A stretch of DNA of 64,000 nucleotides from the NCBI GenBank assembly GCA_964542475.1, contig CAZIUL010000007.1, forward strand, positions 34,067 to 98,066, written 5' to 3'. Below, in pieces: positions 6,407-59,414 of this stretch. Under the pieces are notes generated by a model that made no database searches, was not told the origin of the DNA, and saw only the letters and a list, made by a program, of their open reading frames with translations. The stretch comes from an uncultured Phycisphaerales bacterium (GTDB lineage: Bacteria > Planctomycetota > B15-G4 > CAYZWU01). The position numbers and the translations under genes were made by a program. How positions within the stretch are numbered: the first letter of the stretch is position 1; every line of letters starts with the position of its first letter.

Positions 6407-6442
6407 GCGGATCGTTTTTTTTGATAACGGAGTAGAACCAAA

Positions 6443-44777: not shown

Positions 44778-46121
44778 CTACGGCAAGAACTCGATCTCGG
44801 CCGCGTTCGACACGTAGTCATAGGGCCCGTACAACAGGAAGGCAAAACGCATTGGAACACCGATCGCATTGGGGGACAGTGGTCCCAGCGTGTTGAACTG
44901 TGCTGTTGCCGACCCTTTCGAGTCAAGGGTTCCCTGGAAATCGATAAAGGCCGGTGTGTTTGCCATCCCAAAGATCAAGGTTGTGACAAAATCCCAGTTC
45001 AGAGGGAAAACCTTGCCGCTCGGAAGAGTAAAACCCGGATCGGTTCCGGTGACGTTTCCAAGAAGAAAGTAGTTCCTGTTCGGGTGGTCCCTGCCCAGAC
45101 CGAGAGAGAAATCTATTGTGCCGCCGGTGGAAACATGGATCCGGTTGTTTTCGAGAGAAAGCGGCCCCACCGCCTCGAAATAGCGCACATAGCCTTCCGG
45201 GCTGTTGTCGAAGTTCCGGTTGCCCACAAGCAGATCCTGCACACCGTCGTTGTTCCAGTCCGCTACATCCAGGCGCGCGTAGTAGACCACGTCGATTATG
45301 CTTCCTCCGGCCTTGAGCTTCATACTTCCGTTGAACAGCGGCGAGACATCAGTGCCTGTGTTTTCCCAGTAGTTCACATTCCCGTTGTAATCGCCGCACA
45401 GGAGGTCCCTCTTGCCGTCCCGGTTCCAGTCAACCATTACCGGGCTTGCTTCGTTCCCGGTGGTAAGAGTGGACACGCCATCCTGCAGCCAGACGGCTCT
45501 GTTGAACACCGGCGTGGAAGTCGGGCTCACGTTAATGAGCAGGTGCACCTTGCCGCCATCTTCTCCCACTAGCAGGTCGACCTTGCCGTCCTTGTTCCAA
45601 TCCACGAAAAAAATGTGGGAATTGAGCCCGCAGTCGTAGTTGACCGCTCCCAGCCTCAGGAAGGTGTATCCGTTGAACTGGGGATCGTCATCCGTGTTTG
45701 TGTTCAGGTAGATGCGAATGGTTCCGTTCCGTTCGCCCACGATAAGATCCTTCTTTCCGTCTCCGTTATAGTCCACGACACGTGGACAAGAACCGAAACA
45801 TCAGGAGTACGATGTGGTAATGGTAACTCCACCGGATTTAAGCTTGACTCCTGCCGGGAACTCTGGATTGAGATCCGTGCCGTTGTTCAGGAAAAGAGTG
45901 ATGTGACCATAACCGAAACACCCGACAAGCAGGTCTTTCGCCCCGTCATTGTTCCAGTCCACAACCTCCGGGGTCGCGTGCCTGTCCACCAGGTAGGGCG
46001 ATCCATTGGCTTCGATGATGACCGCGCTCTTCAGCTCAGGCATCGCTCCATGCGCCGGCCCGGCCATGAAAGCCGACACCAGGAGCACCAGGGGTAAAAC
46101 AAAAAACACCGCTTTTCTCAT
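44778..46121 (-). CDS. Secreted FG-GAP repeat protein with in-frame TGA (candidate Sec107) and C-terminal domain
   Basis: ORFs 45801..46157 and 44778..45776 share a frame and are separated only by TGA (45803-45801) plus 8 sense codons: TITTSYS-*-CFGSCPRVVDYNGDG. RBS GGAGG and signal peptide at 46121; VVDWNNDG-type repeats on both sides of the TGA. Confidence 0.8.
45760..45798 (-). promoter_or_regulatory. Candidate bacterial SECIS element
   Basis: After the UGA: perfect GUCCAC/GUGGAC stem with a GUGUC loop starting at +20; lower stem UUUC-G-GUU / AAC-G-GAGA. Confidence 0.65.
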
Positions 46122-46306
46122 GACAACCTCCAGGATCTCAATGTACTTTATACACACAACACGGGCTTGTTTATCGCCTCTCCAGTATCAGATCGGCAGA
46201 TGAGAAGGGTTGGTTTAGCTGATGATATTTTACACGATCCCATGAAAAACGGAACGTTGAAAACAACAAATATCTTGCATGGATGTCAGGAAGAAGTGTT
46301 CGGTGT

Positions 46307-48370
46307 TCAATCTTCACCCCTCCCCTCCCCCGCTATCCTCGATCCCTTCCGCCAAGGCCTGCGCTTTTTATACGACCCGATCCTCTCCCGTATTCCCTCC
46401 TCGAGCCCGGCAATACCTGACCGCGCCGCAAGATCCGCAGCCTTTTTTGCGGTCTCGACCGCCTCGTCAAACCTGCCGGCAGCCGCGTATGCGGCAGCCA
46501 GCGTGTCAAGGATGCGCGCATCCCCGTGCCCCGTCATCCGGCTGACAGCAAGCGCCAGCCTCACCGCCTCGTTCGCTTCCGCACGGTTCGTGCCTGGGCG
46601 CGTGGCAAGGGTCCAGGCCAGGTTGTCCATGGCTTGGAAAGAGCCCGCCGGGTCGAGCCGGATCGCTTCCCGGAAATGAAACACGGCTTCGTCGGTCCTG
46701 CCGGCGCCGGTCAGGGCGATCCCGAGGTTGTTGTGGGTGTTCGCGTGGTCCGGATCGATGTCGAGGGCTGCGCGGTAAGCCTTGACAGCGCCTCCTCGGT
46801 CCCCCTTTTTGAGCAACGTGTTGGCCAGGTTGTAAATCGCGCGTGCATCGCCTGGATCCAGCTCGACAGCCCTTTTCAAAAAGCTCTCCGCCTCGTCCAT
46901 CCTGCCCCTTGCCGACAGCGCCACACCCATGTTCACGTGTGCATCCTGGTACTCGGGAGCGATCCGGATCGCTTCCTCGAAATGGTAAAACGCCTCATCA
47001 TGCCTGCCGTCAGTCTCCAACGCGATTCCGAGGTTGTTGTGAGCTATGAAGTTTTCATTGGTGTTATCAAGGCAGTTCTCAAAAAGCACAGTGCTGTTCT
47101 TCCAGTACCCGACCTGTTTCCCGGCGCTGAATCCGAGCGCGCAAAGAGCTGTTGCGGCGAACACGACCAGCGGGATCCTGGCGCGCTTGAGGGCCGCTGC
47201 GAAGCTAGCAACGATCCAGGCAATTGCAACGAAAAGCCCGATCATGGGGACATAGGTGTACCTGTCAGCCATTGCCTGGCGCCCCACCTGAACGAGCCCG
47301 ATCACAGGCACGAGGGTACCGAGATACCATAACCAACCGGTCAGGATGTACGGCCTGCGCCTCCACATGAAAACAGCGCTCGCGGTCACGCATGCCAGCA
47401 ACACAGCCGAAACGATCCACTTCCACGCATCGATGGAAGCTCCCTGATGGGGATAGTACACGCAAAGCCGCCTCGGCAGAAACATGTCAACCGCGTACTG
47501 CGCATAGGAACAAAAAGCGTTTGTCAGGCGCTGAATAAACGGGAAGATTTCGGACGATTTCACTGCCCCGCCGCTTTTTTGAACAGTATAGGTAATCACG
47601 CATGAAACGGCCGAGAGCGCGAAAAACGGAACCTTCTCCAGCAACAGGTAAGGCAGCCTCGAAAACGAAAACTCCGCGTTGCGCACAGGCGGCGGCGAAC
47701 GGCTGCTTCTGTTTTTCGAAGTACGGCTGTCAGGCCGCGTCCTTCCGAGCGGCCAGAAATCCAGAAGAAGCAGCAGAAAAGGCAGGGTCACGAGCATCGG
47801 CTTGGCCATCAGGCCGAGCGCAAAGAACAGCAGGCAGAACAGGTGCCTTCCTATACCAGGGCGTTCGGTATAGCGCAGGTAAGCCTGCAGGGCCAGCAGC
47901 ATGAACAGCGTGCTCAGGAGGTCCTTGCGCTCAGCGACCCATGCCACGGATTCAACATGAAGCGGATGGATCGCAAACAGCGCGGCAACCAGGAAAGCCG
48001 GCCAGAACATCCCGGTCATCCCTTTGAGAACGAGAAGAAGCAGGAGCGCGTTTATGATGTGCAGCAGCAGCCCGGACAGATGATGTAAGCCCGCGTCCAG
48101 GCCGAAGAGCTCGCAGTCAGCCATGTGCGAAAGCCAGGTCAGAGGATGCCAGTTGGCCTCTTCCGTTGCGAAGAAAGCCCATGAGATGTTTTCAGGGCTG
48201 AGGCCTGTGCGCACGTGAATGTTCTTCGTCACGTAGCCGGGATCGTCGTAAAGAACAAAATCGTGACCGGACACCGGCCAATAAACCGCCACGGTCGCCG
48301 CAACCAGAAGAAAAACCGCTAGCATGCGAGCCGGGCTCAACAGAGCTCTGTTTTGAGAATGTGTATTCAT
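46307..48370 (-). CDS. Multi-TM GT-C-like protein with C-terminal TPRs (TMTC-like)
   Basis: FVLYDDPGYV, NWHPLTWLSH, HPLHVESVAWVAERKD, KPMLVTLP and ADRYTY motifs followed by TPRs. Confidence 0.85.
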   Translation of the reverse strand: MNTHSQNRALLSPARMLAVFLLVAATVAVYWPVSGHDFVLYDDPGYVTKNIHVRTGLSPENISWAFFATEEANWHPLTWLSHMADCELFGLDAGLHHLSGLLLHIINALLLLLVLKGMTGMFWPAFLVAALFAIHPLHVESVAWVAERKDLLSTLFMLLALQAYLRYTERPGIGRHLFCLLFFALGLMAKPMLVTLPFLLLLLDFWPLGRTRPDSRTSKNRSSRSPPPVRNAEFSFSRLPYLLLEKVPFFALSAVSCVITYTVQKSGGAVKSSEIFPFIQRLTNAFCSYAQYAVDMFLPRRLCVYYPHQGASIDAWKWIVSAVLLACVTASAVFMWRRRPYILTGWLWYLGTLVPVIGLVQVGRQAMADRYTYVPMIGLFVAIAWIVASFAAALKRARIPLVVFAATALCALGFSAGKQVGYWKNSTVLFENCLDNTNENFIAHNNLGIALETDGRHDEAFYHFEEAIRIAPEYQDAHVNMGVALSARGRMDEAESFLKRAVELDPGDARAIYNLANTLLKKGDRGGAVKAYRAALDIDPDHANTHNNLGIALTGAGRTDEAVFHFREAIRLDPAGSFQAMDNLAWTLATRPGTNRAEANEAVRLALAVSRMTGHGDARILDTLAAAYAAAGRFDEAVETAKKAADLAARSGIAGLEEGIRERIGSYKKRRPWRKGSRIAGEGRGED

Positions 48371-48438
48371 GCCATAATCGTATAGACCGGAACCCCGGCT
48401 ATCAAGATCCGGTTCTGAATCGTGAGAAGGATAGGTGC

Positions 48439-48462
48439 AAAATTTTACCCGGTGAAAATTTT
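48439..48462. promoter_or_regulatory. AT-rich imperfect inverted repeat between divergent genes
   Basis: AAAATTTTACCCGGTGAAAATTTT in the ~125-bp divergent intergenic region. Confidence 0.25.
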
Positions 48463-48495
48463 CTACGGGCTCGGTATATACGGTATACTTCCGTC

Positions 48496-50124
48496 ATGAA
48501 CGAACAGGTGATTTCCCGGGATTCCGGCAATGCTCAGGCACAAAACCGCCCCAACCGAGCGGCTCTCCTGGCGGCCATCCTTGCAGGGATAGCGGCTTTC
48601 GCGCTTCTTGCCTGGAAGTTCAACTGGATCTGCGACGACGCGTTCATCTCGTTCCGCTATGCCAAAAACCTGGCCAACGGGAACGGGCTCTGCTACAACC
48701 CCGGCTCCCACACGCCGGTAGAGGGGTATTCCAATCCGCTCTGGACACTGCTCATGGCCCTGTTCGAAGCGCTGCGCCTTGATGTCACCGTATGGTCTCG
48801 CATCATCTCGGTTCTTTGCGGCGGGGCGCTCATCGTTCATGTTACGCGCTATACACGGCGTGCTTTCAGCCTGGGATTCGGCCAAACGGCCGCAGCGTCC
48901 CTTTTTCTCGCAACGCTCCCAACTGTAGCGGTCTGGTCCACCAGCGGGCTCGAGTCGATGCCGGCCTGCCTCCTGATCTTCATGACGTACGAGCGCCTTC
49001 TCGGCAGCAGCACGAAGCCTCACGGTATCCATGCGGCACTCCTCGGAACGTGCCTGTGCCTGATCCGGGCCGACGGTCCCGGCTTTCTCGCCTTGATCCT
49101 CGCAGCAGCAGCCTTTACCTGGTTTTTCCGCGGCAAAAAAGGCGCGCTTCTCCGCGCAAGCCTGGTGGTTGCAGCGGCGGCAACAGCAGCCGTGGCTATC
49201 CATGTTGCCTGGCGGTACTCGTACTACAACGACTTTGTCCCGAACACCGCGCACGTAAAGGCCGGGCTCTCCATGATTCGCATCGAGCGCGGTGTCTACT
49301 ATGTCATGAGTCTTTTTCTCGCGGTTCCTTCGCTGGCGCTTGTGCTCATCTTCTCGCTGCTCCCGCGATCCAGCCCTTCGAGGCCGCCCGCAGCAGGCGC
49401 GTTATGGATGACCTTCGCAACAGCAGCCTACGCAATTTACGTGGGCGGCGACTTCATGACAATGGGCAGGTTCCTCCTGCCTGCAATGCCTTTCGCGGCG
49501 GTGCTGTTCGCAGGAATCCTGTGCGGGCCCCGTGTAAAACGCACAAGCTTCGTCGCGCTGTTCGCTTTCACGGTCCTGGCCCTCTCCATGCTTCCGTGCT
49601 TCGACTTAAACCCAATACCGCGCGCCGCGCGCGAAAAGTTCCATTTCCGCTGGGGCGACAGCGAGTACAGAACCGAACACGCTATCTGGGAGGCAATGAA
49701 ACGAAACACCGAGACATGGACCTTTCTCGGCAAAGAGCTGAAGCGCTTCACAAAACCCGGCGAATCAATCGTGCTCGGGCCGATCGGCGCTCAGGGGTAC
49801 TACTCCGACCTTTTCATCTACGACATCTACGGGCTCACCAACAGGGATGTCCTGAAAAGCAGCGGCCCGCCAAAGCGCAACAACCCCGGCCACGATTGCA
49901 GCGTTCCGATCACGCACTTTTTGAAGCACCAACCGACCTATCTCGCTGCGTATATCGTTGACTCGGGCAGCACAAAAAACTCATCGGAACTATGGAAGCA
50001 ATGGCAAGAGATCCCGATCAGCCGCAATATCAAGATAGAAACGAATGCGCTCGGCCCGGACTCCGGATTCGGTCCGGGCAAGGAGCTCCTTCTCCTGCGG
50101 TACTTACCGGCGCAGGGCAGGTAG
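48496..50124 (+). CDS. Multi-TM GT-C-type glycosyltransferase-like membrane protein
   Basis: CDDAFISFRYAKNL, VEGYSNPLW, SGLES, PNTAHVK, GGDFM..GRFLLP and DIYGLT motifs. Confidence 0.8.
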   Translation: MNEQVISRDSGNAQAQNRPNRAALLAAILAGIAAFALLAWKFNWICDDAFISFRYAKNLANGNGLCYNPGSHTPVEGYSNPLWTLLMALFEALRLDVTVWSRIISVLCGGALIVHVTRYTRRAFSLGFGQTAAASLFLATLPTVAVWSTSGLESMPACLLIFMTYERLLGSSTKPHGIHAALLGTCLCLIRADGPGFLALILAAAAFTWFFRGKKGALLRASLVVAAAATAAVAIHVAWRYSYYNDFVPNTAHVKAGLSMIRIERGVYYVMSLFLAVPSLALVLIFSLLPRSSPSRPPAAGALWMTFATAAYAIYVGGDFMTMGRFLLPAMPFAAVLFAGILCGPRVKRTSFVALFAFTVLALSMLPCFDLNPIPRAAREKFHFRWGDSEYRTEHAIWEAMKRNTETWTFLGKELKRFTKPGESIVLGPIGAQGYYSDLFIYDIYGLTNRDVLKSSGPPKRNNPGHDCSVPITHFLKHQPTYLAAYIVDSGSTKNSSELWKQWQEIPISRNIKIETNALGPDSGFGPGKELLLLRYLPAQGR

Positions 50125-50227
50125 CGTGCCGTCCGGAAAAACAGTACAATAGCCCCGGCCGCAGGGCCGTGGTTTTCAAAGGGTTCCCAGGCCTTTTTTT
50201 TAATGGTTTTTTCGCGGGGCGAGAACA

Positions 50228-51820
50228 ATGAAACGCAAAATGAACAGGAACAGCGGCATCTTAACCCTGTTTTTCATCTTCTGCTCCTGCGGCGCCTTCT
50301 CGTGCAAGGATTCGGCAAAAGTTCCCGGAGAGATGCGCGCTCACGAAAAAGCGATGGAAAAGTCGATCCCGGCAAAGAAGGTGAAAGAGATCGCAGAGGA
50401 AGATATCTTCACGGTTACCAGCGCGCCCAGGTGGTTCACGGATGACGCGCACTCGCTGAAACAGCAGGTGGACGGGTTTCTTGCAAAGGCCGAGAAAAAG
50501 GAGCTCCCGGGCCGTGTAAAAGCGTTGATATCGCCTCACGCCGGGTTCATGTGCTCCGGCCGGGTTGCCGCCTGGTCGTACTGCCAGGTGGCCGGGCATG
50601 AATATGACACGGTCATTGTGGTAGGGTTCAACCACAGGCCACGCGCCCAGGGCATCGCCGTGTACGCCAAGGGCGGGTTCCGCACACCTCTGGGGGTCAT
50701 CCCCATTGACACTGACACAGCGGATGAGCTGATCAGAAGCCACGAGCGGATTCAGCACAACCCCTCGGCGTTCGCGGGCGAACACTCGCTGGACAACCAG
50801 CTCCCGTTCCTTCAGCGCGCCCTGGGCTCGTTCTTCCTGGTCCCTGTTCTTCTGTGCAGCCAGGATGACCACAACATCGACGCGCTGGCGGAAGCGTTGA
50901 TCTCCGCCGCAAAAAACAAGCGTGCGCTCCTGGTGGCAAGCACCGATCTCAGCCACTTCTGGCCGCACGAACAGGCGGCAAAACTCGACCGCGAGGCGCT
51001 TGAAAAGGTGCTTGAACTCGATGCCGGCGGGCTTGCGGATCTTCTCGGAAACGACCCGACCGGCCGCAGGATGTGCGGAAGAGGCGCTGTCCAGGCGGTG
51101 ATACGCGCGGCAACCGGGCTTGGCGCCGACACGGCACACCTGTTGCAATACGCGGACAGCTTTGACACGACCGGGACATCGGAAGGCCGCGTTGTAGGGT
51201 ACTGCGCGGTTGCTCTCACAGGACCGGACAATGGAACGACATCCGGAAAGGGAGAGGAAATGAAAAAATTCGATAATGACAAGGAACTGGATTCCGGGGA
51301 TTGCAGGCGGCTTCTCGAGATAGCGAGGAAATCGCTCGACCTTTTTGTGCGGGAGGGCAAAAAGATCGATGTGCCTGACGATCGCCCGCGCCTGAACGCA
51401 AAGCGGGGCGTTTTCGTGACTCTCAACAAAAACGGGCGGCTTCGCGGATGCATGGGGCATTTCGAGGATGACACAAGGCTTTGCGAAATTGTTGCGCGCC
51501 AGGTGACTGTTTCAGCAGCACAAGACCCGCGCTTCAGGCCGGTTGAGGCGGATGAGCTCGATGACATCACCATCGAGATCTCGGTGCTCAGCGTTCCTGA
51601 AGAGACGGACTCGTTCGAGGAGATCGAGGTGGGGCTTCACGGGGTCATCCTCCGAAAAAAAGGCCGAGGAGCGACATTCCTGCCACAGGTCGCGCCTGAG
51701 CAGGGATGGGACCGGGACGAGATGCTCACGCATCTTTCCATGAAGGCAGGCCTCCCGGGAGACGCGTGGAAATCCGGAGCGACCTTCCTGCTCTACACCG
51801 CCCAGGTCTTCGGAGAATAA
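50228..51820 (+). CDS. AmmeMemoRadiSam protein B (MEMO) - protein A (AMMECR1) fusion with lipoprotein-like signal
   Basis: ISPHAG, GFNH, EHSLDNQLPFLQ, STDLSH and MCG (MEMO domain), then GVFVTL..GRLRGCMG, DPRF, ISVLS and ATFLPQV (AMMECR1 domain). Confidence 0.92.
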   Translation: MKRKMNRNSGILTLFFIFCSCGAFSCKDSAKVPGEMRAHEKAMEKSIPAKKVKEIAEEDIFTVTSAPRWFTDDAHSLKQQVDGFLAKAEKKELPGRVKALISPHAGFMCSGRVAAWSYCQVAGHEYDTVIVVGFNHRPRAQGIAVYAKGGFRTPLGVIPIDTDTADELIRSHERIQHNPSAFAGEHSLDNQLPFLQRALGSFFLVPVLLCSQDDHNIDALAEALISAAKNKRALLVASTDLSHFWPHEQAAKLDREALEKVLELDAGGLADLLGNDPTGRRMCGRGAVQAVIRAATGLGADTAHLLQYADSFDTTGTSEGRVVGYCAVALTGPDNGTTSGKGEEMKKFDNDKELDSGDCRRLLEIARKSLDLFVREGKKIDVPDDRPRLNAKRGVFVTLNKNGRLRGCMGHFEDDTRLCEIVARQVTVSAAQDPRFRPVEADELDDITIEISVLSVPEETDSFEEIEVGLHGVILRKKGRGATFLPQVAPEQGWDRDEMLTHLSMKAGLPGDAWKSGATFLLYTAQVFGE

Positions 51821-51854
51821 GCACTTCCGCGCACCGTTCAAGGAAACCGGCAAC

Positions 51855-52994
51855 ATGAAATACACAAACGCGCGCTTCGATCAGGAACGGCGCCGTTTTC
51901 CGATCACTGAAAGGTTTGCGTACCTGGATCATGCCTCGCGCGGGCCGCTCTCGCCGCCCGCAAGCGAGCTGATCGAAAAGATCACCCGGGACATGGCAAT
52001 GCTGCACCCGCATCAGCTACTCGAGATGAACCGGGAGTTCGAGGATGCGCGCCGGAACATTGCCACGCTCATAGGAGCACCCTCCGGTTCTATCGGGTTC
52101 ATACCAAACACATCGTCAGGCCTTGCCATGGCAGCCGGATCGCTTCCCATCACTAAAGGGCAAAACATCGTGTGCGCGCGCAACGAGTTCCCCGCCAACA
52201 TCTACCCGTGGCTGAACCAGCGCGAAAAAGGAGTGGAGGTCCGGTTCATCGACCCCTCCCCCTGCGGCGTCACGGCCGACGATGTCCGGGCCGCAATGGA
52301 CGGCAAAACGGGCATCGTGGCGCTTTCGTGGGTGGGGTTTTCGGACGGGGCGCGAATAGACACGCGGTCCATCGGAAGCCTCTGTTCGGAAAAGAAGGTT
52401 TTTTTCGTGGTGGATGCCATCCAGGGGACAGGCGCTTTGAAGGTCGATCTCGAAGACATCGACATCCTTGTCAACGGCACTGGAAAGTGGACGCTCGCGC
52501 CACAGGGAGGGGGGTTCGTCTATGTCCGCCCCGGCCTCATCGAAAGGCTGCATCCCGACCGCACGGGCTGGCTGTCCATGAATGCGTTCGCCGGGCTCGA
52601 AAACTTCGACAGGCTCACCGACTACAGGTTCGAGCTCGCTAAAGACGCGCGCAGGATCGAGACCGGCAGCAATTCGCCGCTGGTTCAGAGGGCGCTCGGC
52701 GCGAGCAGCCGCTACCTGCACGAGCTGGGCACCGCCGCCATCGAGGAGCGGATCATCGGGCTTTGCGACCGCCTGATCGAGGGCCTCCGCCAAAAGGACC
52801 TGGCAATCATGAATCCGCTCATCGAAGGCCAAAGGTCGGGGATCGTATGCTTCAGGCCTGCTGACGCGGCGAAAGCCGTTGAAAAACTGATTGCCCGGGA
52901 TGTGCTCGTATCCGCGCGCGAGGGAAACGTGCGCGTGGGGATTCATTTTTACAACAACGAGGAAGACATCGATAGGCTGTTGGATGGTGTGTAA
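51855..52994 (+). CDS. Class V PLP-dependent aminotransferase-fold enzyme
   Basis: YLDHAS, NEFPAN, VDAIQG, GTGKW (PLP Lys) and IHFYN motifs. No persulfide Cys loop seen. Confidence 0.88.
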   Translation: MKYTNARFDQERRRFPITERFAYLDHASRGPLSPPASELIEKITRDMAMLHPHQLLEMNREFEDARRNIATLIGAPSGSIGFIPNTSSGLAMAAGSLPITKGQNIVCARNEFPANIYPWLNQREKGVEVRFIDPSPCGVTADDVRAAMDGKTGIVALSWVGFSDGARIDTRSIGSLCSEKKVFFVVDAIQGTGALKVDLEDIDILVNGTGKWTLAPQGGGFVYVRPGLIERLHPDRTGWLSMNAFAGLENFDRLTDYRFELAKDARRIETGSNSPLVQRALGASSRYLHELGTAAIEERIIGLCDRLIEGLRQKDLAIMNPLIEGQRSGIVCFRPADAAKAVEKLIARDVLVSAREGNVRVGIHFYNNEEDIDRLLDGV

Positions 52995-53024
52995 AGCTCT
53001 GCGGGCGGATTCCGTGTTCCGTGT

Positions 53025-53798
53025 TCAAGAAGAGGGCGCATCGAAAAGAATGCTCGAACAGGTCAGGCCGGCTTCCGCCTTCATGAGCTCTGATATGTCC
53101 ACGATCCTTGTCTCAAATCCCCTGGCTTTCACCTTTTCGGCGGTCCCTGTAAACCCCGCGTGAAGGCAGATCACATCGTTGATACAAAGCGCGTTCGCTG
53201 CCGTGGGTTCTCCCTGCGCAACATTGACCACATCAAACCGCTCGAAAGGGCCAAGGTCGAGCCATTCCGGGTTCGCCAGCAAGGTGCCGTCATCCAGCGC
53301 AACGCAGGCGGATTTCAGGTGAAGGCATCCATGAAGAGCGACCGGAACGATCCTGTAACCCAAGGGTTCGAGTATCCTTTTCAGCGTGTCCGCGCCTTCG
53401 GCATTGGTCCGCCTGGACAGCCCAACGTAAAGGGTCGACCCGACCCGGAGCACATCGCCCCCTTCAAGCGTTGCGGGGGGCCTTATCCGTTCGATCTTGC
53501 GGTATGCTGACAGCGCCTCTTCCACAACAGCGGTCTCACCGTTTCGCGACTCAACCCCCATGTTCGCAATGACAGCCGCCTCATCCACCACAACCGCGGT
53601 GTCCTCGACAAAGGTGCAATCCGGAAAACGCTCGTTTCCATCGAGCTCGATCACCCGCGCACCACACTCTCGAAGCAGGCCGCAGTAGGCTTCGTGCTGC
53701 TCAACAGCGAGTGAGTAATCGATAGGAAGCCGGTCGTGATACGAAAGTTCGCACCTGTTCACATCCCGGGAAACGACATGAGTCAAAGCGGTCAGCAT
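53025..53798 (-). CDS. Dimethylarginine dimethylaminohydrolase family (amidinotransferase superfamily)
   Basis: QHEAY, PDCTFVEDTAV, EGGDVL, LHLKS and GLTCSS (catalytic Asp/His/Cys); GGAGG RBS before ATG 53798. Confidence 0.92.
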   Translation of the reverse strand: MLTALTHVVSRDVNRCELSYHDRLPIDYSLAVEQHEAYCGLLRECGARVIELDGNERFPDCTFVEDTAVVVDEAAVIANMGVESRNGETAVVEEALSAYRKIERIRPPATLEGGDVLRVGSTLYVGLSRRTNAEGADTLKRILEPLGYRIVPVALHGCLHLKSACVALDDGTLLANPEWLDLGPFERFDVVNVAQGEPTAANALCINDVICLHAGFTGTAEKVKARGFETRIVDISELMKAEAGLTCSSILFDAPSS

Positions 53799-53831
53799 AC
53801 GGCAGCCGGCCTCCATGCTTTGGATAGGCGC

Positions 53832-55169
53832 TCAAACCTTGGGCAGTTCCCAGGGTGCGCGGTAGTGGGCGCGCACCATCTCCTGCGCCTCGGCATCGCC
53901 CACGATCTCCTCCTTTTCATCGTCCCAATCCACTTTTCTGCCGGTCCTGAACGCGATGTTCGAGAGATGGCAGGCCTTCATGGACTGGTGAGCGATTTCC
54001 ACGTCGGACACCGGCTTTTCGCGGCTCTTGACGCAGTCGAGGAAGTTTTTGACATGAAGGAACTCGCAGCTGACCGAGCCCTTCTGACGTGGCACCGGCG
54101 TCATCTTGAACCTGCTTCCGCCCTCCGAAGGCTCGGTTTCGGCAGCGATCTCCCATCCCAGCCTGTCAACGACAAGCACTCCGTCGCTGCCTTGAAACGC
54201 AACACCATGCTCGCGCTGCCACGGTCCTATCCCGATGCCGATGGCGTGCTCCCAGATGACCGAAAAACCGTCGTACACCAAAACAGCCTGCTGGGTGTCC
54301 GGGGTTTGCCTTACATCGTCCGGAAAGCCGAACTTGCCCCCCACGGAGATCGCTGATTTCGGTGCCTGGACGTTCATCCCCAAGTTCGCGATATCCAGCA
54401 TGTGCGCGCCCCAGTCCGTCATCAGCCCGCCTGCGTAATCCCAGAACCATCGGAACGAAAAATGGAACCGGTTCCGGTTGAAAGGACGTTTAGGCGCCGG
54501 CCCAAGCCACATCTCATAGTCAACGTTGGCCGGCACCGGCTCGTCTTCCATCGCTTCGAAACGGTACACCCAGTTCAGGTAAGCCCAGCACCTTACCATC
54601 CTGACCTTGCCTATCCCTCCGGATTTCACGATGTCAACGCACTGCCTGTAGTGATCGGCGCTTCTCTGCTGCGTGCCCATCTGCACGACCCGGTTGTGTT
54701 TGCGCGCAGCATTCACCATCACCCGCCCCTCTTCGATGGTCAACGAAAGAGGTTTTTCCACGTACACATCCTTGCCTGCCTGGCAGGCCATGATCGTGGG
54801 CAGCGCGTGCCAATGGTCCGGGGTCGCGTTTATGACCACATCCACATCTTTTCTGTCGATGACTTCCCGAAAATCCTTGGTTACGTCGACAGACTTCTTC
54901 GCCCCCCTTATCTGCTCAACGAGTTCGATGGCCATTTTCAGTTTCCACGAATCCACATCACAGATCACCGCGGGCTCAACCTCACGAACCTTCAAAAAGT
55001 GGTTGAGAAGACTCGTTCCCATTGCACCGCAGCCTATCAATGCGACGCGGATCTTTTCGTTAGGAGAAACAGTTTCTGCTGATGCGCGCCCGGCAAGCAC
55101 CGCGGTTGAAGCGAGCCCCGCGCCTGCGGCCAACTTGGTAAATTCACGTCGCGTCACGCTCTTCCCCAT
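53832..55169 (-). CDS. Tat-exported Gfo/Idh/MocA family oxidoreductase
   Basis: TRREF Tat motif; ALIGCGAMG, ATPDHWH, YVEKPL, GTQQRS, WLGPAP and DWGAH motifs. Confidence 0.93.
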   Translation of the reverse strand: MGKSVTRREFTKLAAGAGLASTAVLAGRASAETVSPNEKIRVALIGCGAMGTSLLNHFLKVREVEPAVICDVDSWKLKMAIELVEQIRGAKKSVDVTKDFREVIDRKDVDVVINATPDHWHALPTIMACQAGKDVYVEKPLSLTIEEGRVMVNAARKHNRVVQMGTQQRSADHYRQCVDIVKSGGIGKVRMVRCWAYLNWVYRFEAMEDEPVPANVDYEMWLGPAPKRPFNRNRFHFSFRWFWDYAGGLMTDWGAHMLDIANLGMNVQAPKSAISVGGKFGFPDDVRQTPDTQQAVLVYDGFSVIWEHAIGIGIGPWQREHGVAFQGSDGVLVVDRLGWEIAAETEPSEGGSRFKMTPVPRQKGSVSCEFLHVKNFLDCVKSREKPVSDVEIAHQSMKACHLSNIAFRTGRKVDWDDEKEEIVGDAEAQEMVRAHYRAPWELPKV

Positions 55170-55185
55170 GGCTTTCTTCTCCTGA

Positions 55186-56322
55186 TCAGGTTGGTTTTTT
55201 CGCATCGACTATTACCCCTCCATCCGGTAAATCAGAGGGGTCGAATCCAAAATCGGTTAAAAAACGGTCCGTAACCTCTTTGTTTATGTCCCAGGAGCAC
55301 ACATCCCTGCGGAACCGGTTCGCCAGCAGATAATCCACGGCAGGCCCGAACGTTCCCATGAACAGCCTGTTCGGCTGGGCCGAGCTCAGGCCTAGAGGGC
55401 CCTGCTCGCTCGCCCACAACGCATCCACAATGCAGAGCTGCTGCCTTGGAAACGCGATCTTTTTTTTCTTCGAGTCCATCTCGCCCAGGATCAGGGGGGT
55501 TTTGTTGACACAGATCAGGTAGTCGGTCCTGCCCTTTCCGTGGGCCGGCTTTGGATCAAAGGTTCCAAAGTGGTTTTTCATGCACATGGTGAAGCCGCCG
55601 AACTCCGGCTGATGGCCCTTGCACACCGCCAGGTTCACAATGATATCCACCTCGCCTTTCACGAGATGACCCAGGCATCCGGTCCTGTTCTTCGCGTTGT
55701 GAACCGGATTGCCGTGCCAGGGTTCCGGCACCTCGGCCTCCGCGTCGAACCCCCCCCACTGGCCCGCGATGTCCACTCCCTCGGGCAGCCCCTTGAACGG
55801 CGTCTTCCTGAGCATGTCCTTCCCGTGGCTCGCGTCGTAGATATGCACATTGGCGGGCTTGACCTCCAGAACATCGGTCAGCACCCGGCAAATCTTCGCC
55901 ATGACAGCCCCGCGAGTGTGCTGCATGGCCAGGTTGTTGGTCTTGACGGCGACAGTGACATCGCTCCATGATTTCCCCGGGGGCTTTATCAGGATCGCCT
56001 TCCAGGCGTCCGCAACACGCTTCTCGCGTGCAAGGGAACAGGCCATGAGGTCGATGTTCTCACTCACCTTTTCACTGTCGGTCAGCTTGTCCTGAGCACG
56101 CCACGGGATGACCGGTTTCAGAATCGTGGTCATATCTGTGTCATGAACCCCAACGACACGCAAAGGATCAAGGTTGGGATGGTACCTGAAGCTTCCTTCG
56201 GATGGATCGCTGCAGAGCCTAGGGATGAAAAACAACGTGCCCGTGCCAAGAGCGGTCGCTCCAAGGGCCGCTCCCTTGATAAAGGATCTTCGGGAAAGGT
56301 CCGCCTCAGAGTTGCCGCTCAT
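55186..56322 (-). CDS. Tat-exported DUF362 domain protein
   Basis: SRRSFIK Tat motif; VAVKTN, VNLAVCKGH...FTMCMKNHFG and LCIVDAL motifs. Confidence 0.75.
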   Translation of the reverse strand: MSGNSEADLSRRSFIKGAALGATALGTGTLFFIPRLCSDPSEGSFRYHPNLDPLRVVGVHDTDMTTILKPVIPWRAQDKLTDSEKVSENIDLMACSLAREKRVADAWKAILIKPPGKSWSDVTVAVKTNNLAMQHTRGAVMAKICRVLTDVLEVKPANVHIYDASHGKDMLRKTPFKGLPEGVDIAGQWGGFDAEAEVPEPWHGNPVHNAKNRTGCLGHLVKGEVDIIVNLAVCKGHQPEFGGFTMCMKNHFGTFDPKPAHGKGRTDYLICVNKTPLILGEMDSKKKKIAFPRQQLCIVDALWASEQGPLGLSSAQPNRLFMGTFGPAVDYLLANRFRRDVCSWDINKEVTDRFLTDFGFDPSDLPDGGVIVDAKKPT

Positions 56323-56446
56323 CGGTTCGGCTCCGATAAAAACCGAGTCACACGGGATAAACAAAACCGGACTTCCGCCTGCCGCCTCCGCTGGGCAAGC
56401 TTCACAACTATGTTTCGAAAGGATCCCGGATATCCTTTAGATTCAC

Positions 56447-57598
56447 TCAGCCCTCATCGGACCCTTTGCTTTCCCCGGAATCCTCCTCGGGTTCGGGCGG
56501 CGCCGGCATGTCGACCTTCACCAGGTCCATGCGCTTTGGATCGTTCGTTCCAAGCCCCCTGGCCGCGGCAGTGGCGATGTGCTTGGCAGGCCTGCCTTTT
56601 TTACCGCCTTCGGCGCGATTTGGCGCCTCTTCGAGCGGCACAAATCCCATATCCTTTCGCGCTTTCACGATCCACTCGTGAACGATCATGTCAACGGCAA
56701 CCGGGTCAGCGGACAGGAGAATCTTCTCGTGTTCGAAAAGATGGTTCATGGACATGAGCTGAGGCCCGCCGTCAGCAACACCGAAAAGACCGTCCAGGAT
56801 GTGCAGCCTGAGCTTGTCGCGCACGCAGGCGATGTTGTTTATATCCGCGATGTGAGGATCGCAGCAGTTCGCGTGGCAGAGCCAGGGGATGTCCACCACC
56901 GCGTGCGAAATGTTCTTGAGCGCGCCGGTTACGCCTGAGCATGCATGGTCTTTCAGCACCGGGATGTTGATGATCGCTGTGAGCTCGTTCGCAACCAGCT
57001 CCGCTACCTTGACCTGGCCCCATGAAAACTTCTGCGGCTCTGTGTCGAAACCCGAAAGAGGCTTCCCGCCCATGTAGTTCTCCTCTCTCAGGGCCGGCGT
57101 GCACCCCTTGAAAACCACATCTTTCTCAGCCAGCTCACCCCTCATTTTCTTCACGTAGTACTTGTGCAGTGTCTCTTCCACCTGGTCCCACACGATGATG
57201 TTCTTCATGGGAACGCCGGCTGCCAGCACACCGTTGTAAACCGTCTCCAGTATGCTCTCCTTGCTGCTGATCAGGCGGCCGCCGCCGCTGTTCAGCTTGA
57301 TGCCGACCACATCATCCGGCTTCACGAAACAACGCCATGCCGACGCTGTATCTTTTTTCCCTGTAAGCGCCAGCATACCGCGCTCAACCATCTTTTTGAC
57401 GCGATCCTCATCCAGCCGCTTTCCGAGCGTCACCGCGCCCGGCGCTGACACCTCGATGACACGGCTTTTCTCCCCTCCGGAAGGACGAGGCTCCTCAGCG
57501 CCCCTGAGAAGCGCTTGCGGGCCGAGCGCCGCTGCAGCGCCGGCTGTTGCGGTTTTTTTGATGAACGATCGCCGATCCATACCTGTTGTCTTTTTCAT
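56447..57598 (-). CDS. Tat-exported DUF362 domain protein
   Basis: DRRSFIK Tat motif; VGIKLN, INIPVLKDH..SGVTGALKN, LHILDGL and DPVAVD motifs. Confidence 0.85.
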   Translation of the reverse strand: MKKTTGMDRRSFIKKTATAGAAAALGPQALLRGAEEPRPSGGEKSRVIEVSAPGAVTLGKRLDEDRVKKMVERGMLALTGKKDTASAWRCFVKPDDVVGIKLNSGGGRLISSKESILETVYNGVLAAGVPMKNIIVWDQVEETLHKYYVKKMRGELAEKDVVFKGCTPALREENYMGGKPLSGFDTEPQKFSWGQVKVAELVANELTAIINIPVLKDHACSGVTGALKNISHAVVDIPWLCHANCCDPHIADINNIACVRDKLRLHILDGLFGVADGGPQLMSMNHLFEHEKILLSADPVAVDMIVHEWIVKARKDMGFVPLEEAPNRAEGGKKGRPAKHIATAAARGLGTNDPKRMDLVKVDMPAPPEPEEDSGESKGSDEG

Positions 57599-57720
57599 GT
57601 TCAAGGTCCTTAATCAACAAAACGAGTATGGGTGCCGGTCAACAACCTACCATAATTCGGGGGAGCCTTACGCAATTAGGGCGTTGGAATCGACTCCATC
57701 AACAATCAAGTCCCCCGAGT

Positions 57721-59280
57721 TTACTCCACTTCGAAAGTACAGAGGTTGGTCAGTTTATAACCGATCATCGCCTGGAAGTAAACTGTGTAGGGGCCGGGAG
57801 GAGCAGGCGGCACCGTACCCGGGTGCACGAGCACACCGCAGGAAGGGATCGAAGGAAGAGGAGGCAAAACGGCAAAAGGGAAGCTGATGTACCAGTCGCC
57901 GTACGCGCTCGGCAGGGGAGGATCATAAACGCTGAACCCGGCCACCAACCCTACCTGAGCGGTCAGGGGATCGCCGACGAATTTAAGCTCCACGCACTGG
58001 CCGGGGGAGGGATCGCCGGTGAAATAAAGATGCCTGTGAAATTCATCCGCCCCGATATCCGGTCCGGCTCCGAATGTACGCTCATCGTACTCGAAGTCGG
58101 TTTCCGGAAGCCCGGGGGCCAGGCTGTCCCCGGCATCTCTCAAAGGCGAGTGATGGAAGATGTGGAAATCGTTGCCCTCCGCATCGACAAAACATGGGTC
58201 ATCATCGATGTTGCCCGTTCCGGGGCAGCCGCCCTCCACGTCGCAGAACGAAACCAGAGGTGTACTGTTCATTGCCAACAACTGCTTGGGAACGTTTCCA
58301 TAGACGATGCAGTTCGTGATGCTGGGCGAGCTGTTATAGCAAGCAATGCCGTACGCCGAGTTTCCAAAGATGGTGTTGTTCGTGATCCTCATCGCCGAGG
58401 ACGTGGACATACACTTGATGCCGCCGCTCTTGTTGCCGTAGATGATGTTGTTGACGAAATCACCTTCTCCCATGAAGCTCTGGATGCCAACGGAAGCGTT
58501 GTCGTGGATGACGTTGCCGCGAACAGATGAATTCCCGTTACAAAAATAGAAGGCGCCGTAAAAGCCTAAGTTGGCAATAACCAGGTTGTTCTCCACAACC
58601 GGAAAGGAGTCTAAACACTCTATAGCGCCGGAGTGCCATGCGCCGTTGTTCTCCACAAAAACGTTGTAGGTTATGACAGGCCATGAGTCGACGCAATGCA
58701 TACCGGCTCCGCCGCACTTGCAATAGTTTCCCGAGATAATGTTTCCCTGGACCAGGGGTGAGGAGTCGGAGGAGTAAACCCCGCCGCCCTCGGCGCTTCA
58801 GTCCCAGGGCGGGCCGTTCTCAACGATCAGGTTGTCCTTTATCGATGGCGAGGATCCGTCCTTGCAGCAGATCCCGCTCCCGCGCGGGGACATGTTCTGA
58901 GTGATCACGTTGTTCGTGATCAAGGGCGCTGAACCGCCGCAAAAAATCCCGCCGCCCAGAGGAGACTTCCCGTTGCAAATGGTGAAGCGCTCAAGAACCG
59001 ATCCTTCCCCCTCCCCGCTTTCAAACGTCACAACACTGCCCGCCTCCAGGCCGTCGATGATCGACAACTGTGGGCCGTCCTCGCTGGTAAGTGTAATGGC
59101 CTTACCATTGAAATCGATGTTTTCCGCGTACGTTCCGGCAGCGACAAGAACCACATCACCGTCCGATGCCGCGTCGATGGCCCCCTGTATCGTGGGATAA
59201 TCCAGGGGCACATGAACAGTGGCTGCAAACGCGGCAGCCGTATGATACAGAACGATGCCGATGATGATTGTCTTTCTCAT
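57721..59280 (-). CDS. Secreted right-handed parallel beta-helix protein with in-frame TGA (candidate Sec161) and C-terminal domain
   Basis: ORFs 58798..59310 and 57721..58701 share a frame and are separated only by TGA (58800-58798) plus 32 sense codons that continue the repeat: NGPPWD-*-SAEGGGVYSSDSSPLVQGNIISGN. VPLDYPTIQGAID N-cap; RBS GGAGG and signal peptide at 59280. Confidence 0.8.
58760..58791 (-). promoter_or_regulatory. Candidate bacterial SECIS element
   Basis: After the UGA, +7 to +38 folds as GAGGG/CUCCUC-side, CGG/CCG and GGGG/CUCC stems, with G-U at the apex (+19/+20). Confidence 0.5.
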
Positions 59281-59414
59281 GCGATCCTCCGCAAAACACG
59301 CCGAGAACAACTACCAACAGGCTATCTGTCTATCCATGAGGGTTATAATAACCGAATATGCTTGTTTGTCGAGGATTTTCGCGCATGGACGGCCTCCGGC
59401 CTCAAGCCCGCTTA

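What the first reader, a model, noticed from the sequence alone, without database searches (positions are those of the whole stretch)
44778..59280. Possible system: a lineage-level secreted selenoproteome built on repeat scaffolds with terminal appended domains
Seen: two unrelated secreted repeat proteins 12 kb apart share one design: signal peptide, a single in-frame TGA (not TAA or TAG), a hairpin with apical G-U about 19-20 nt downstream, neighbouring Cys residues, and an appended C-terminal domain. TGA is also a normal terminator here (ileS, argS, ftcD, mcsB and others), so global codon reassignment is excluded. Inference: context-dependent recoding, most likely Sec, puts selenium into exported surface proteins. 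Annotation pipelines would split these genes, so the class would stay invisible. Two independent nonsense mutations with this shared geometry is the less parsimonious reading.
Basis: inference. Interest (0 to 1): 0.85.

Follow-up and report, generated by a model that had tools for sequence, protein, structure and literature searches.

The report
Exported selenoprotein families in a planctomycete
This marine planctomycete lineage reads the stop codon TGA as selenocysteine in dozens of secreted structural proteins that databases cut into two genes; one of the two genes flagged here is a solid case and the other may simply be a broken gene.

Summary
Both genes exist as described. Each is a minus-strand ORF pair joined by one TGA, and each has a signal peptide.

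- **FG-GAP gene (46121-44778, U107): almost certainly a selenoprotein.**
  - The TGA-Cys dipeptide recurs in 3 further paralogues in this genome, in about 34 genes of four sister genomes, and in Verrucomicrobiota, Kiritimatiellae, Pirellulales and Phycisphaerae.
  - Some relatives have Cys at that position.
  - A hairpin starting 13 nt after the UGA shows compensatory base changes.
  - The genome has tRNA-Sec, selA, selB and selD.
  - More than 100 database homologues are fragments that begin just after the TGA.
- **Beta-helix gene (59280-57721, codon 161): unresolved, about 40% Sec.**
  - Its TGA is real; it is identical on all six contigs I compared, from six metagenome assemblies.
  - It is unique among about 45 paralogues and has no orthologue and no Cys counterpart.
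  - Nonsense pseudogenes occur in this family.
  - A different beta-helix paralogue does carry a TGA that is conserved across genera.
- **Genome-wide:** 10 of 51 proteins that share a 121-aa C-terminal domain are split, always by TGA. Two further exported families carry a TGA in every full-length (family C) or most (family B) copies.
- **Machinery:** these families co-occur with duplicated selB and selA.

None of the four families (FG-GAP, beta-helix, B, C) appears in the 2026 catalogue of 119 selenoprotein families. The lineage-level reading holds, but this is not a locus-level system.

The parts
44778..46121 (-). FG-GAP/VCBS beta-propeller selenoprotein gene (447 aa, P0002). Layout: signal peptide, five DxNxDG repeats, C-terminal domain X.
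   Evidence: Translation. Pfam PF13517 and PF01839. AlphaFold2 model with pLDDT 89; Foldseek finds integrin- and CRTAC1-type propellers.
45801..45803 (-). In-frame UGA = selenocysteine codon U107, in the motif SYS-U-CFGSCPRVVDYNGDG.
   Evidence: TGA sits at the same column in 3 own paralogues, in about 34 genes of sister genomes G001-G004 and G043, and in 7 genes of other PVC lineages. Cys stands there in L024, L026 and P0233.
45771..45787 (-). SECIS-like hairpin GUCCACG-UGU-CGUGGAC. The stem starts 13 nt after the UGA.
   Evidence: On 16 distinct sequences, 87.5% of cells are paired and 4 of 7 pairs change on both sides. 0 of 500 shuffles reach the observed value. The hairpin is absent in the Cys and Gly forms.
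46047..46121 (-). Signal peptide of P0002 (residues 1-25, AHG/A).
   Evidence: Read directly from the sequence. The AlphaFold2 model shows a low-confidence N-terminal helix at residues 1-24.
44790..45149 (-). C-terminal domain X (about 121 aa), with no Pfam or NCBIfam match.
   Evidence: An HMM built from genome hits finds it at the extreme C-terminus of 51 ORFs of this genome. No family match.
57721..59280 (-). Right-handed beta-helix gene (519 aa if read through, P0001). It is one of about 45 paralogues in the genome and lies downstream of two sulfatase genes.
   Evidence: Translation. Pfam PF13229 and NosD. Paralogue census. Neighbouring genes.
58798..58800 (-). In-frame TGA at codon 161 (NGPPWD-TGA-SAEGGG), in the variable loop before the GGG of a coil. 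It is either Sec or a nonsense mutation; this is unresolved.
   Evidence: The whole gene, TGA included, is 100% identical on the six contigs compared, each from a different metagenome assembly (16 contigs carry the downstream product). No TGA or Cys at that column in paralogues or in 35 homologues.
58760..58791 (-). Imperfect GC-rich hairpin after the TGA, with loop UUUA at 58778-58775.
   Evidence: MFE fold. Its energy ranks 20th of 167 equivalent coil sites, so it is not diagnostic.
59224..59280 (-). Signal peptide of P0001 (residues 1-19, AFA/A).
   Evidence: Read directly from the sequence.
57724..58035 (-). C-terminal domain Y of the beta-helix family (about 104 aa), unrelated to domain X.
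   Evidence: Conserved in paralogues and homologues. hhalign of X against Y gives probability 0.5%.

Best explanation
The window holds two unlinked genes for exported repeat proteins of a Phycisphaerae-type planctomycete.

**FG-GAP gene.** It belongs to a widespread exported beta-propeller selenoprotein family that I did not find in the catalogues checked.
- SelB with Sec-tRNA(Sec) recognises the hairpin that starts 13 nt after UGA-107 and inserts selenocysteine in the cytoplasm.
- The signal peptide then exports the protein.
- Outside the cytoplasm a vicinal Sec-Cys pair sits in the loop just before the second Ca-type DxNxDG motif. It most likely forms a selenenylsulfide redox or metal-binding centre. 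This function is inferred, not shown.

**Lineage level.** The gene is one of at least 20 exported selenoprotein candidates in this genome, spread over several scaffolds. Many of them end in the same 121-aa C-terminal domain X, probably a sorting or anchoring domain. The scaffolds are:
- two FG-GAP types;
- a CBM-like family ('C');
- a beta-sandwich family with the motif YG-U-GGTC ('B');
- a beta-helix subfamily with a C-U pair;
- thioredoxin-like and deiodinase-like proteins.

These families are expanded in this bacterial family. They co-occur with duplicated Sec machinery.

**Beta-helix gene in the window.** Its status is open. It is either a young Sec site (about 40%) or a recent nonsense pseudogene (about 55%).
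For: **Sec machinery**
- tRNA-Sec scores 77 bits.
- selA, two selB and two selD are present; one selD itself contains a TGA.

**FG-GAP gene**
- TGA followed by Cys is conserved in four phylum- or class-level lineages, in 4 own paralogues and in 38 genes across G000-G004 and G043. No FG-GAP-region hit lacks it.
- Cys forms exist: Cys-Cys in L024 and L026, and S-C-N in P0233.
- The hairpin shows covariation.
- Of the 120 best database homologues, more than 100 are 320-340-aa fragments that begin just after the TGA.

**Lineage level**
- Domain-X census: 34 ORFs intact with a signal peptide, 10 split, and all 10 splits are TGA.
- Stops aligned between paralogues: 24 TGA, 2 TAA, 0 TAG.
- TGA with a Cys within 4 residues: 20 sites, against 6 for TAA and TAG together.
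- Family B: 17 of 21 hits carry TGA, and the hairpin has compensatory changes.
- Family C: all 28 full-length hits carry TGA.
- Beta-helix gene on contig C66: TGA is conserved in 4 orthologues from 3 sister genomes.
- selB is present in 2-3 copies in exactly the 8 of 41 genomes that carry family B.

**Not catalogued**
- None of the four families (FG-GAP, beta-helix, B, C) is in Table 1 of the 2026 review of 119 families.
- P0001 and P0002 match no dedicated NCBIfam model; families B and C were scanned against Pfam only.
- The paper library holds no paper that links VCBS or FG-GAP repeats to bacterial selenoproteins.
Against: - No experimental evidence of selenium in any of these proteins.
- All the genomes are metagenome-assembled.
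- selA is near-universal in this order (52 of 61 genomes), so co-occurrence with the machinery is a weak test.
- Non-Sec relatives of family B have Asp, not Cys, at the site.
- The role proposed for the Sec-Cys pair is inference only.
- For P0001:
  - there is no orthologue in 5.8 billion proteins;
  - there is no Cys at the site;
  - two TAA nonsense pseudogenes occur in the same family in sister genomes;
  - the hairpin is not distinctive.
Confidence: 0.82

Rival explanations
1. The beta-helix gene (59280-57721) is a recent nonsense pseudogene. A sense codon in a variable loop mutated to TGA in one of about 45 fast-evolving paralogues. The downstream hairpin is a by-product of the GGC/GGG Gly codons and TCC Ser codons.
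For: - It is the only paralogue with a TGA at this site. Neither the roughly 25 own paralogues that align across the site nor 35 database homologues has Cys or TGA at that column.
- No orthologue above 50% identity exists anywhere.
- Real nonsense alleles occur in this family in sister genomes: Q to TAA in G002:C23, and a TAA in G004:C54. G002:C47 carries another singleton TGA.
- The hairpin energy ranks only 20th of 167 equivalent sites.
- A search with the N-terminal fragment found no conserved truncation point.
Against: - The frame stays open and coding-like for 358 codons after the TGA.
- The TGA is fixed on every contig compared, from six assemblies.
- No TAA or TAG split occurs among the roughly 45 beta-helix or 51 domain-X genes of this genome.
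- A beta-helix paralogue (C66) carries a genuine conserved Sec in the analogous pre-GGG loop.
- The hairpin geometry fits the bacterial SECIS range.
Confidence: 0.55
2. The beta-helix gene is a young, lineage-specific selenoprotein. Sec161 lies in the turn before GGG and stacks near the C-K-C loop of the next coil.
For: - The stop is TGA, not TAA or TAG.
- The hairpin's apical loop lies about 19 nt after the UGA.
- The genome makes many exported selenoproteins, including a beta-helix subfamily with Sec in the same kind of loop.
- The gene is intact on both sides of the TGA and is fixed in the population.
Against: The same points listed as evidence for the pseudogene reading. In addition, there is no adjacent Cys, unlike most of the new families here.
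Confidence: 0.4
3. The TGAs are true stops. Each pair is two genes (a small secreted protein plus a cytoplasmic repeat protein), or the UGA is read by a mechanism other than Sec, such as near-cognate read-through or a Trp/Cys suppressor.
For: TGA is the main terminator in this genome. No experimental data exist.
Against: - The split is always TGA, never TAA or TAG.
- The downstream parts lack a signal peptide, and often lack a start codon. The upstream part would be a fragment of about one propeller blade.
- Cys-containing relatives are continuous proteins.
- A covarying hairpin lies at SECIS distance.
- The only tRNA with a UCA anticodon is tRNA-Sec.
Confidence: 0.03

Closest known systems
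SelB/SECIS-dependent UGA recoding in bacteria (E. coli fdhF paradigm; consensus bSECIS model)
   Same: An in-frame UGA is followed within the coding region by a hairpin whose apical loop lies about 20 nt downstream. tRNA-Sec, selA, selB and selD are present.
   Different: The upper stem is short (5-7 bp with a 3-5 nt loop). Recognition by SelB is untested. The genome has 2 SelB paralogues and its sister genomes have 2-3.
Catalogued selenoproteins with a vicinal Cys/Sec dipeptide: MerB-like SaoL and HgcA (CU), CopZ-like 2Fe-2S proteins (GxUC, CU), KCU-star (PMC13188914, Table 1)
   Same: Sec stands directly next to Cys: U-C in both FG-GAP types, and C-U in the beta-helix gene on C66 and the gene on C15.
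   Different: The folds are unrelated (beta-propeller, beta-helix). The proteins here are exported, occur as expanded paralogue families, and have no recognisable enzyme or metallochaperone domain.
Known exported or periplasmic bacterial selenoproteins: thiol:disulfide interchange and DsbA/DsbG-like proteins, SaoB/SaoX binding proteins, FCYXU-type TonB receptor, ExtKL cytochrome (PMC13188914)
   Same: Sec is inserted in the cytoplasm and the protein is then exported through a signal peptide. This genome also has such thioredoxin-like and deiodinase-like exported candidates.
   Different: The new families are repeat or binding scaffolds (FG-GAP, beta-helix, CBM-like, Ig-like). They carry a lineage-specific C-terminal domain and are present in tens of copies per genome.
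Selenoprotein-rich bacteria, for example the Olavius algarvensis delta-1 symbiont (63 genes) and the Desulfobacterota (PMC1976440, PMC13326102)
   Same: A large selenoproteome in an anaerobic marine bacterium.
   Different: The phylum here is Planctomycetota, which is not mentioned in the main texts of those catalogues. The expansion is mainly in exported proteins without a thioredoxin fold.

Membership tests
Bacterial selenoprotein gene (P0002, FG-GAP) | In-frame UGA conserved at the same codon in orthologues and paralogues | tested here: met
   38 genes in G000-G004 and G043, and 7 in other PVC lineages. All are TGA.
Bacterial selenoprotein gene (P0002, FG-GAP) | Homologues with Cys at the Sec position | tested here: met
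   L024 and L026 have Cys-Cys. P0233 has S-C-N.
Bacterial selenoprotein gene (P0002, FG-GAP) | SECIS hairpin downstream of the UGA, supported by covariation | tested here: met
   87.5% of cells paired, 4 of 7 pairs with changes on both sides, and 0 of 500 shuffles reach the observed value.
Bacterial selenoprotein gene (P0002, FG-GAP) | Sec machinery in the same genome | tested here: met
   tRNA-Sec, selA, two selB and two selD.
Bacterial selenoprotein gene (P0002, FG-GAP) | Selenium shown in the protein (75Se labelling or mass spectrometry) | not testable with these tools
   No experimental data.
Bacterial selenoprotein gene (P0001, beta-helix) | UGA conserved in orthologues or paralogues | tested here: not met
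   No orthologue exists. None of about 45 paralogues or 35 homologues has TGA at that column.
Bacterial selenoprotein gene (P0001, beta-helix) | Cys-containing homologues at the site | tested here: not met
   The column lies in a variable, gap-rich loop with no Cys.
Bacterial selenoprotein gene (P0001, beta-helix) | SECIS hairpin | tested here: inconclusive
   A hairpin is present at the right distance. Its energy ranks only 20th of 167 equivalent sites, and no related sequences exist for a covariation test.
Any of the 119 catalogued prokaryotic selenoprotein families (PMC13188914, Table 1) | Domain or motif listed in the catalogue | tested here: not met
   The table has no FG-GAP/VCBS, beta-helix or CBM entry. 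P0001 and P0002 match no NCBIfam selenoprotein model.
FG-GAP/VCBS repeat beta-propeller (PF13517, PF01839) | Profile match above the curated cut-off, and a propeller fold | tested here: met
   PF13517 scores 74 bits against a cut-off of 26.9. The model has pLDDT 89, and Foldseek finds integrin- and CRTAC1-type propellers.
Right-handed parallel beta-helix (PF13229) | Profile match above the curated cut-off | tested here: met
   PF13229 scores 81.7 bits against a cut-off of 25.9.

The most novel reading that the evidence does not exclude
The expanded exported selenoproteome is served by a second, dedicated selenium module.

- **The module.** It is an operon on contig C3: selA, then selD fused to an AhpD/CMD domain, then selB, then a 760-aa Fe-S/FlpD-like electron-transfer protein, then an exported beta-sandwich selenoprotein (family B).
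- **Its distribution.** Genomes with two or more selB copies (2-3) are exactly the genomes that carry the new exported families.
- **The proposal.**
  - One SelB paralogue would be specialised for the short SECIS class of the exported proteins.
  - The Sec-Cys pairs on propellers, beta-helices and CBM-like domains would form a new kind of selenium centre outside the cytoplasm. It could act in redox chemistry or capture metals or selenium, on binding scaffolds rather than enzymes.
Probability: 0.25. Interest if true: 0.85.

Novelty: new variant of a known kind. Interest (0 to 1): 0.66.

Why it matters
- **Where selenoproteins are found.** They are usually described as a small set of mostly cytoplasmic or thioredoxin-fold redox enzymes. 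Here a planctomycete family places Sec, often next to Cys, in tens of exported structural or binding proteins per genome.
- **Effect on annotation.** Gene callers cut these proteins in two. The family appears in public databases as hundreds of 'VCBS repeat' fragments, and bacterial selenium use is under-counted.
- **New questions.** The link to duplicated SelB and SelA gives a testable route to ask how Sec insertion is scaled up, and whether SelB paralogues read different SECIS classes.
- **A caution.** The unresolved beta-helix gene shows that a TGA plus a hairpin in a Sec-using genome is not sufficient evidence of Sec on its own.

Tried and rejected
- **Allele search for P0001 in metagenome contigs.** I ran two degenerate patterns around the codon.
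- **Search with the 160-aa N-terminal fragment of P0001.** It returned only assorted short or low-quality fragments. There was no conserved truncation point.
- **Hairpin energy as a discriminator.** I rejected it. The validated C66 Sec site ranks 92nd of 167 and P0001 ranks 20th.
- **First genome-wide scan on coding potential alone.** It showed no TGA excess (18 TGA, 16 TAA, 11 TAG), because adjacent same-frame genes dominate. The signal appeared only after conditioning on a nearby Cys, on paralogue alignment, or on domain X plus a signal peptide.
- **Homology between the two C-terminal domains.** Rejected: hhalign probability 0.5%.
- **Global codon reassignment.** Rejected: 53% of long ORFs end in TGA.
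- **Assembly error for P0001.** Rejected: the gene is identical on the six contigs compared, each from a different assembly.
- **Distances in the structure model.** They could not be measured, because model coordinates are not exposed. I therefore did not run the second structure job.
Full report
**1. Observation**

On the minus strand, ORFs 45801..46157 and 44778..45776 are in one frame and are separated by a single TGA at 45803-45801. ORFs 58798..59310 and 57721..58701 are likewise one frame, separated by a TGA at 58800-58798. Read through, they give two proteins.
- P0002 has 447 aa and U107. It carries FG-GAP/VCBS repeats (PF13517, 74 bits).
- P0001 has 519 aa and codon 161. It is a right-handed beta-helix (PF13229, 82 bits).

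Both begin with a classical signal peptide. TGA is also the commonest true terminator in the genome, with 1255 TGA, 578 TAG and 550 TAA among ORFs of at least 350 codons. Codon reassignment is therefore excluded.

The genes between the two are unrelated: a TPR protein, Memo/AMMECR1, an aminotransferase, a DDAH-like protein, a GFO/IDH/MocA oxidoreductase and two DUF362 genes. P0001 follows two sulfatase genes. There is no locus-level system.

**2. Organism and machinery**

The window is C7:34067-98066 of a 4.87-Mb, 121-contig metagenome-assembled genome. Its IleS is closest, at 69-71% identity, to 'Phycisphaerales' MAGs, so the organism belongs to the Planctomycetota.

The genome has the following Sec machinery:
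- tRNA-Sec (77 bits);
- selA;
- two selB;
- two selD, one of which has its own in-frame TGA.

No other tRNA has a UCA anticodon.

**3. The FG-GAP gene is a genuine selenoprotein**

- *Conservation of the TGA.*
  - tblastn against related loci shows TGA at the same column, followed by Cys, in Verrucomicrobiota (L014), Pirellulales (L016), Phycisphaerae (L017, L021) and Planctomycetaceae (L018, L020). In Kiritimatiellae (L015) the TGA is followed by Gly, after a Cys-Gly pair.
  - Bacteroidales relatives have Cys-Cys, and others have Gly-Cys.
  - In the window's own genome, three further paralogues (on C77, C36 and C80) have the same TGA-Cys.
  - Across 60 relatives, every hit that covers the FG-GAP region carries exactly one TGA. 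That is 38 genes in G000-G004 and G043, and none without it.
- *The hairpin.*
  - GUCCACG-UGU-CGUGGAC starts 13 nt after the UGA.
  - It keeps pairing through compensatory changes: GUCCGCG/CGCGGAC, AUCCAC/GUGGAU and GUCCAU/AUGGAC.
  - On 16 distinct sequences, 87.5% of cells are paired and 4 of 7 pairs change on both sides. 0 of 500 shuffles reach the observed value, and versions with the 3' partner slid by 1-3 columns pair at no more than 47%.
- *Database state.*
  - Of the 120 best of 1374 homologues in a 5.8-billion-protein collection, more than 100 are 320-340-aa fragments that start just after the TGA ('MDWNNDGKKD...').
  - They are labelled VCBS/FG-GAP repeat protein or hypothetical protein.
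  - A rare full-length relative (P0233) has Cys at the site.
- *Structure.* The AlphaFold2 model is confident (pLDDT 89) and matches integrin- and CRTAC1-type propellers.

**4. The beta-helix gene is unresolved**

- P0001 is one of about 45 paralogues per genome in this bacterial family.
- Its TGA lies in the variable loop before a GGG turn. Neither the roughly 25 own paralogues that align across the site nor any of 35 database homologues has TGA or Cys at that column.
- No orthologue above 50% identity exists in relatives or in the protein collection.
- The TGA is not an assembly error. The same 160-aa plus 326-aa split is called at every place shown for the 16 contigs that carry the downstream product. 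The six contigs I compared, from six different assemblies, are 100% identical across the gene, so they give no information on selection.
- Genuine nonsense alleles occur in this family in sister genomes: Q to TAA in G002:C23, a TAA in G004:C54, and another singleton TGA in G002:C47.
- The hairpin after the TGA has suitable geometry, but its energy ranks only 20th of 167 equivalent coil sites. The validated C66 Sec site ranks 92nd, so energy does not discriminate.
- In favour of Sec:
  - another paralogue (G000:C66:2624-4114) has TGA in the analogous pre-GGG loop (STSC-U-GIPHGGG);
  - that TGA is conserved, with its hairpin, in four orthologues from three sister genomes;
  - no TAA or TAG split occurs among the beta-helix or domain-X genes of this genome.
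- I put Sec at about 0.4 and pseudogene at about 0.55.

**5.

- *(a) First scan.* A scan on coding potential alone gave no TGA excess (18 TGA, 16 TAA, 11 TAG). Adjacent same-frame genes dominate that set.
- *(b) Nearby Cys.* With relaxed thresholds, a Cys within 4 residues of the stop occurs at 20 TGA sites, against 4 TAA and 2 TAG.
- *(c) Domain X.*
  - The C-terminal 121 aa of P0002 form a domain found at the extreme C-terminus of 51 ORFs.
  - 34 of these are intact and have their own signal peptide.
  - 10 lack one and are preceded in frame by an ORF that has one. All 10 junctions are TGA.
- *(d) Stops aligned between paralogues.* 24 TGA sites in 8 families, 2 TAA sites and 0 TAG sites.
- *Candidate families.*
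  - FG-GAP type 1 (4 genes).
  - FG-GAP type 2, with the motif PL-U-CIEYGGDINGDG (2 genes).
  - Family B, with the motif YG-U-GGTC and an MG2-like beta-sandwich (4-5 genes).
  - Family C, CBM-like with domain X (3 genes).
  - The C66 beta-helix gene.
  - Genes on C15 (YC-U-G) and C11 (ST-U-SSC).
  - Four exported thioredoxin-, AhpC- or deiodinase-like proteins.
  - Cytoplasmic HdrA (2 genes) and SelD.
- *Conservation in relatives.*
  - Family B keeps its TGA in 17 of 21 hits, with a covarying hairpin. Its non-Sec paralogues have Asp at the site.
  - Family C has TGA in all 28 full-length hits in G000-G004.

**6. Machinery correlation**

- selA is present in 52 of 61 relatives, so simple co-occurrence is a weak test.
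- selB copy number is more informative. There are 2-3 copies in G000-G004, G009, G027 and G036, and at most 1 in the other 33 genomes. These 8 genomes are exactly the ones with family B hits. They represent only about 3 independent clades.
- In G000, one machinery set forms an operon on C3: selA, selD fused to a CMD/AhpD domain, selB, a 760-aa 2Fe-2S/4Fe-4S/FlpD protein, the family B selenoprotein, and a TetR regulator.
- The other selB lies next to an rpoD-type sigma-70 gene, with no other sel gene found on that contig.

**7. Comparison with what is known**

- The recoding mechanism is the ordinary bacterial SelB/SECIS one.
- The 2026 catalogue of 119 prokaryotic selenoprotein families has no FG-GAP/VCBS, beta-helix or CBM entry.
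- NCBIfam has no dedicated model for P0001 or P0002.
- The main texts of deep-Sep and BSepDB do not mention these families.
- The paper library holds no paper that links VCBS or FG-GAP repeats to bacterial selenoproteins.
- Earlier notes of this scan had independently reported uncatalogued FG-GAP, beta-helix and sel-operon beta-sandwich selenoprotein families in other genomes. My evidence agrees with them but was obtained separately.
- New here:
  - several such families, two of them sharing one C-terminal domain, occur together in one lineage;
  - they co-occur with duplicated SelB and SelA.

**8. Verdict**

- The FG-GAP gene is a real selenoprotein (above 0.9).
- The beta-helix gene is undecided.
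- The lineage-level exported selenoproteome is well supported.
- The idea of one 'design' or one locus-level system is not supported.
- The function of the Sec-Cys pair and of domain X remains inferred.

Noticed in passing
G000:C3:136100-145600 (L236 5100-14600), outside the window: A second sel operon on the minus strand. Gene order: selA, selD fused to a CMD/AhpD domain (540 aa), selB, a 760-aa 2Fe-2S/4Fe-4S/FlpD-like protein, an exported YG-U-EFSC beta-sandwich selenoprotein, and a TetR regulator. The other selB (C27:50140) lies next to an rpoD-type sigma-70 gene, with no other sel gene on that contig.
   Followed up: partly
Relatives G000-G004, G009, G027, G036: selB is present in 2-3 copies in exactly the 8 of 41 related genomes that carry family B selenoprotein genes. 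All other genomes have at most one copy. The sister genomes also have a second, N-terminally shorter selA-like gene.
   Followed up: partly
G000:C7:104324-105688 (about 6 kb beyond the window's end): A family B exported selenoprotein gene (454 aa, U410, motif FEYG-U-GGTCRYSWRV). It has a conserved hairpin, and orthologues at 55-57% identity in G002, G003, G004 and G036 all carry TGA.
   Followed up: yes
G000:C66:2624-4114: A beta-helix paralogue with a conserved Cys-Sec pair (STSC-U-GIPHGGGVRC) in the first coil. TGA and the hairpin are kept in 4 orthologues from G002, G003 and G004.
   Followed up: yes
G000:C83:~5700-7500 (TGA at 6303, minus strand): An exported iodothyronine-deiodinase-like domain (PF00837, motif SSYT-U-PPF) fused to a multihaem c-type cytochrome region with several CxxCH motifs.
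   Followed up: no
G000: C13:67273, C35:13365, C68:6126, C92:495, C9:56892: Five copies of a conserved stretch '...LQVEDRLLA-TGA-..AAT.QFTVPQQKRMK'. The TGA is aligned in all five and the flanks look coding. This could be a repeated element or the conserved end of a gene; I did not examine it.
   Followed up: no
window 44790-45149 and 50 other ORFs of G000: A C-terminal domain of about 121 aa (consensus ...GTxPGxxLPGGxxLPLNWDxF...FxGTLDxxGxAxAxF...FAYxL..P.DxxSNPVEIEI.P). It always ends 3-5 residues before the stop codon and has no Pfam or NCBIfam match. It is probably a lineage-specific sorting or anchoring domain.
   Followed up: partly
G000, whole genome, and G001-G004: A very large expansion of secreted right-handed beta-helix proteins with a common N-terminal cap and a common C-terminal domain. 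There are about 45 paralogues per genome, and they often lie near sulfatase genes.
   Followed up: partly
G000:C83:3284 and C30:40851: Two further singleton in-frame TGAs in secreted proteins (CLLCEYG-U-SEPVEWK in a beta-helix-containing protein, and EAEYG-U-SGTCDVP in a HEAT-repeat fusion). Their conservation was not checked.
   Followed up: no
G002:C47:~44800-46170: A beta-helix paralogue in a sister genome with a singleton TGA in the N-terminal cap (PGTYNE-TGA-NVNFQGKAI) and no adjacent Cys. Like P0001, it could be a pseudogene or a Sec site.
   Followed up: no
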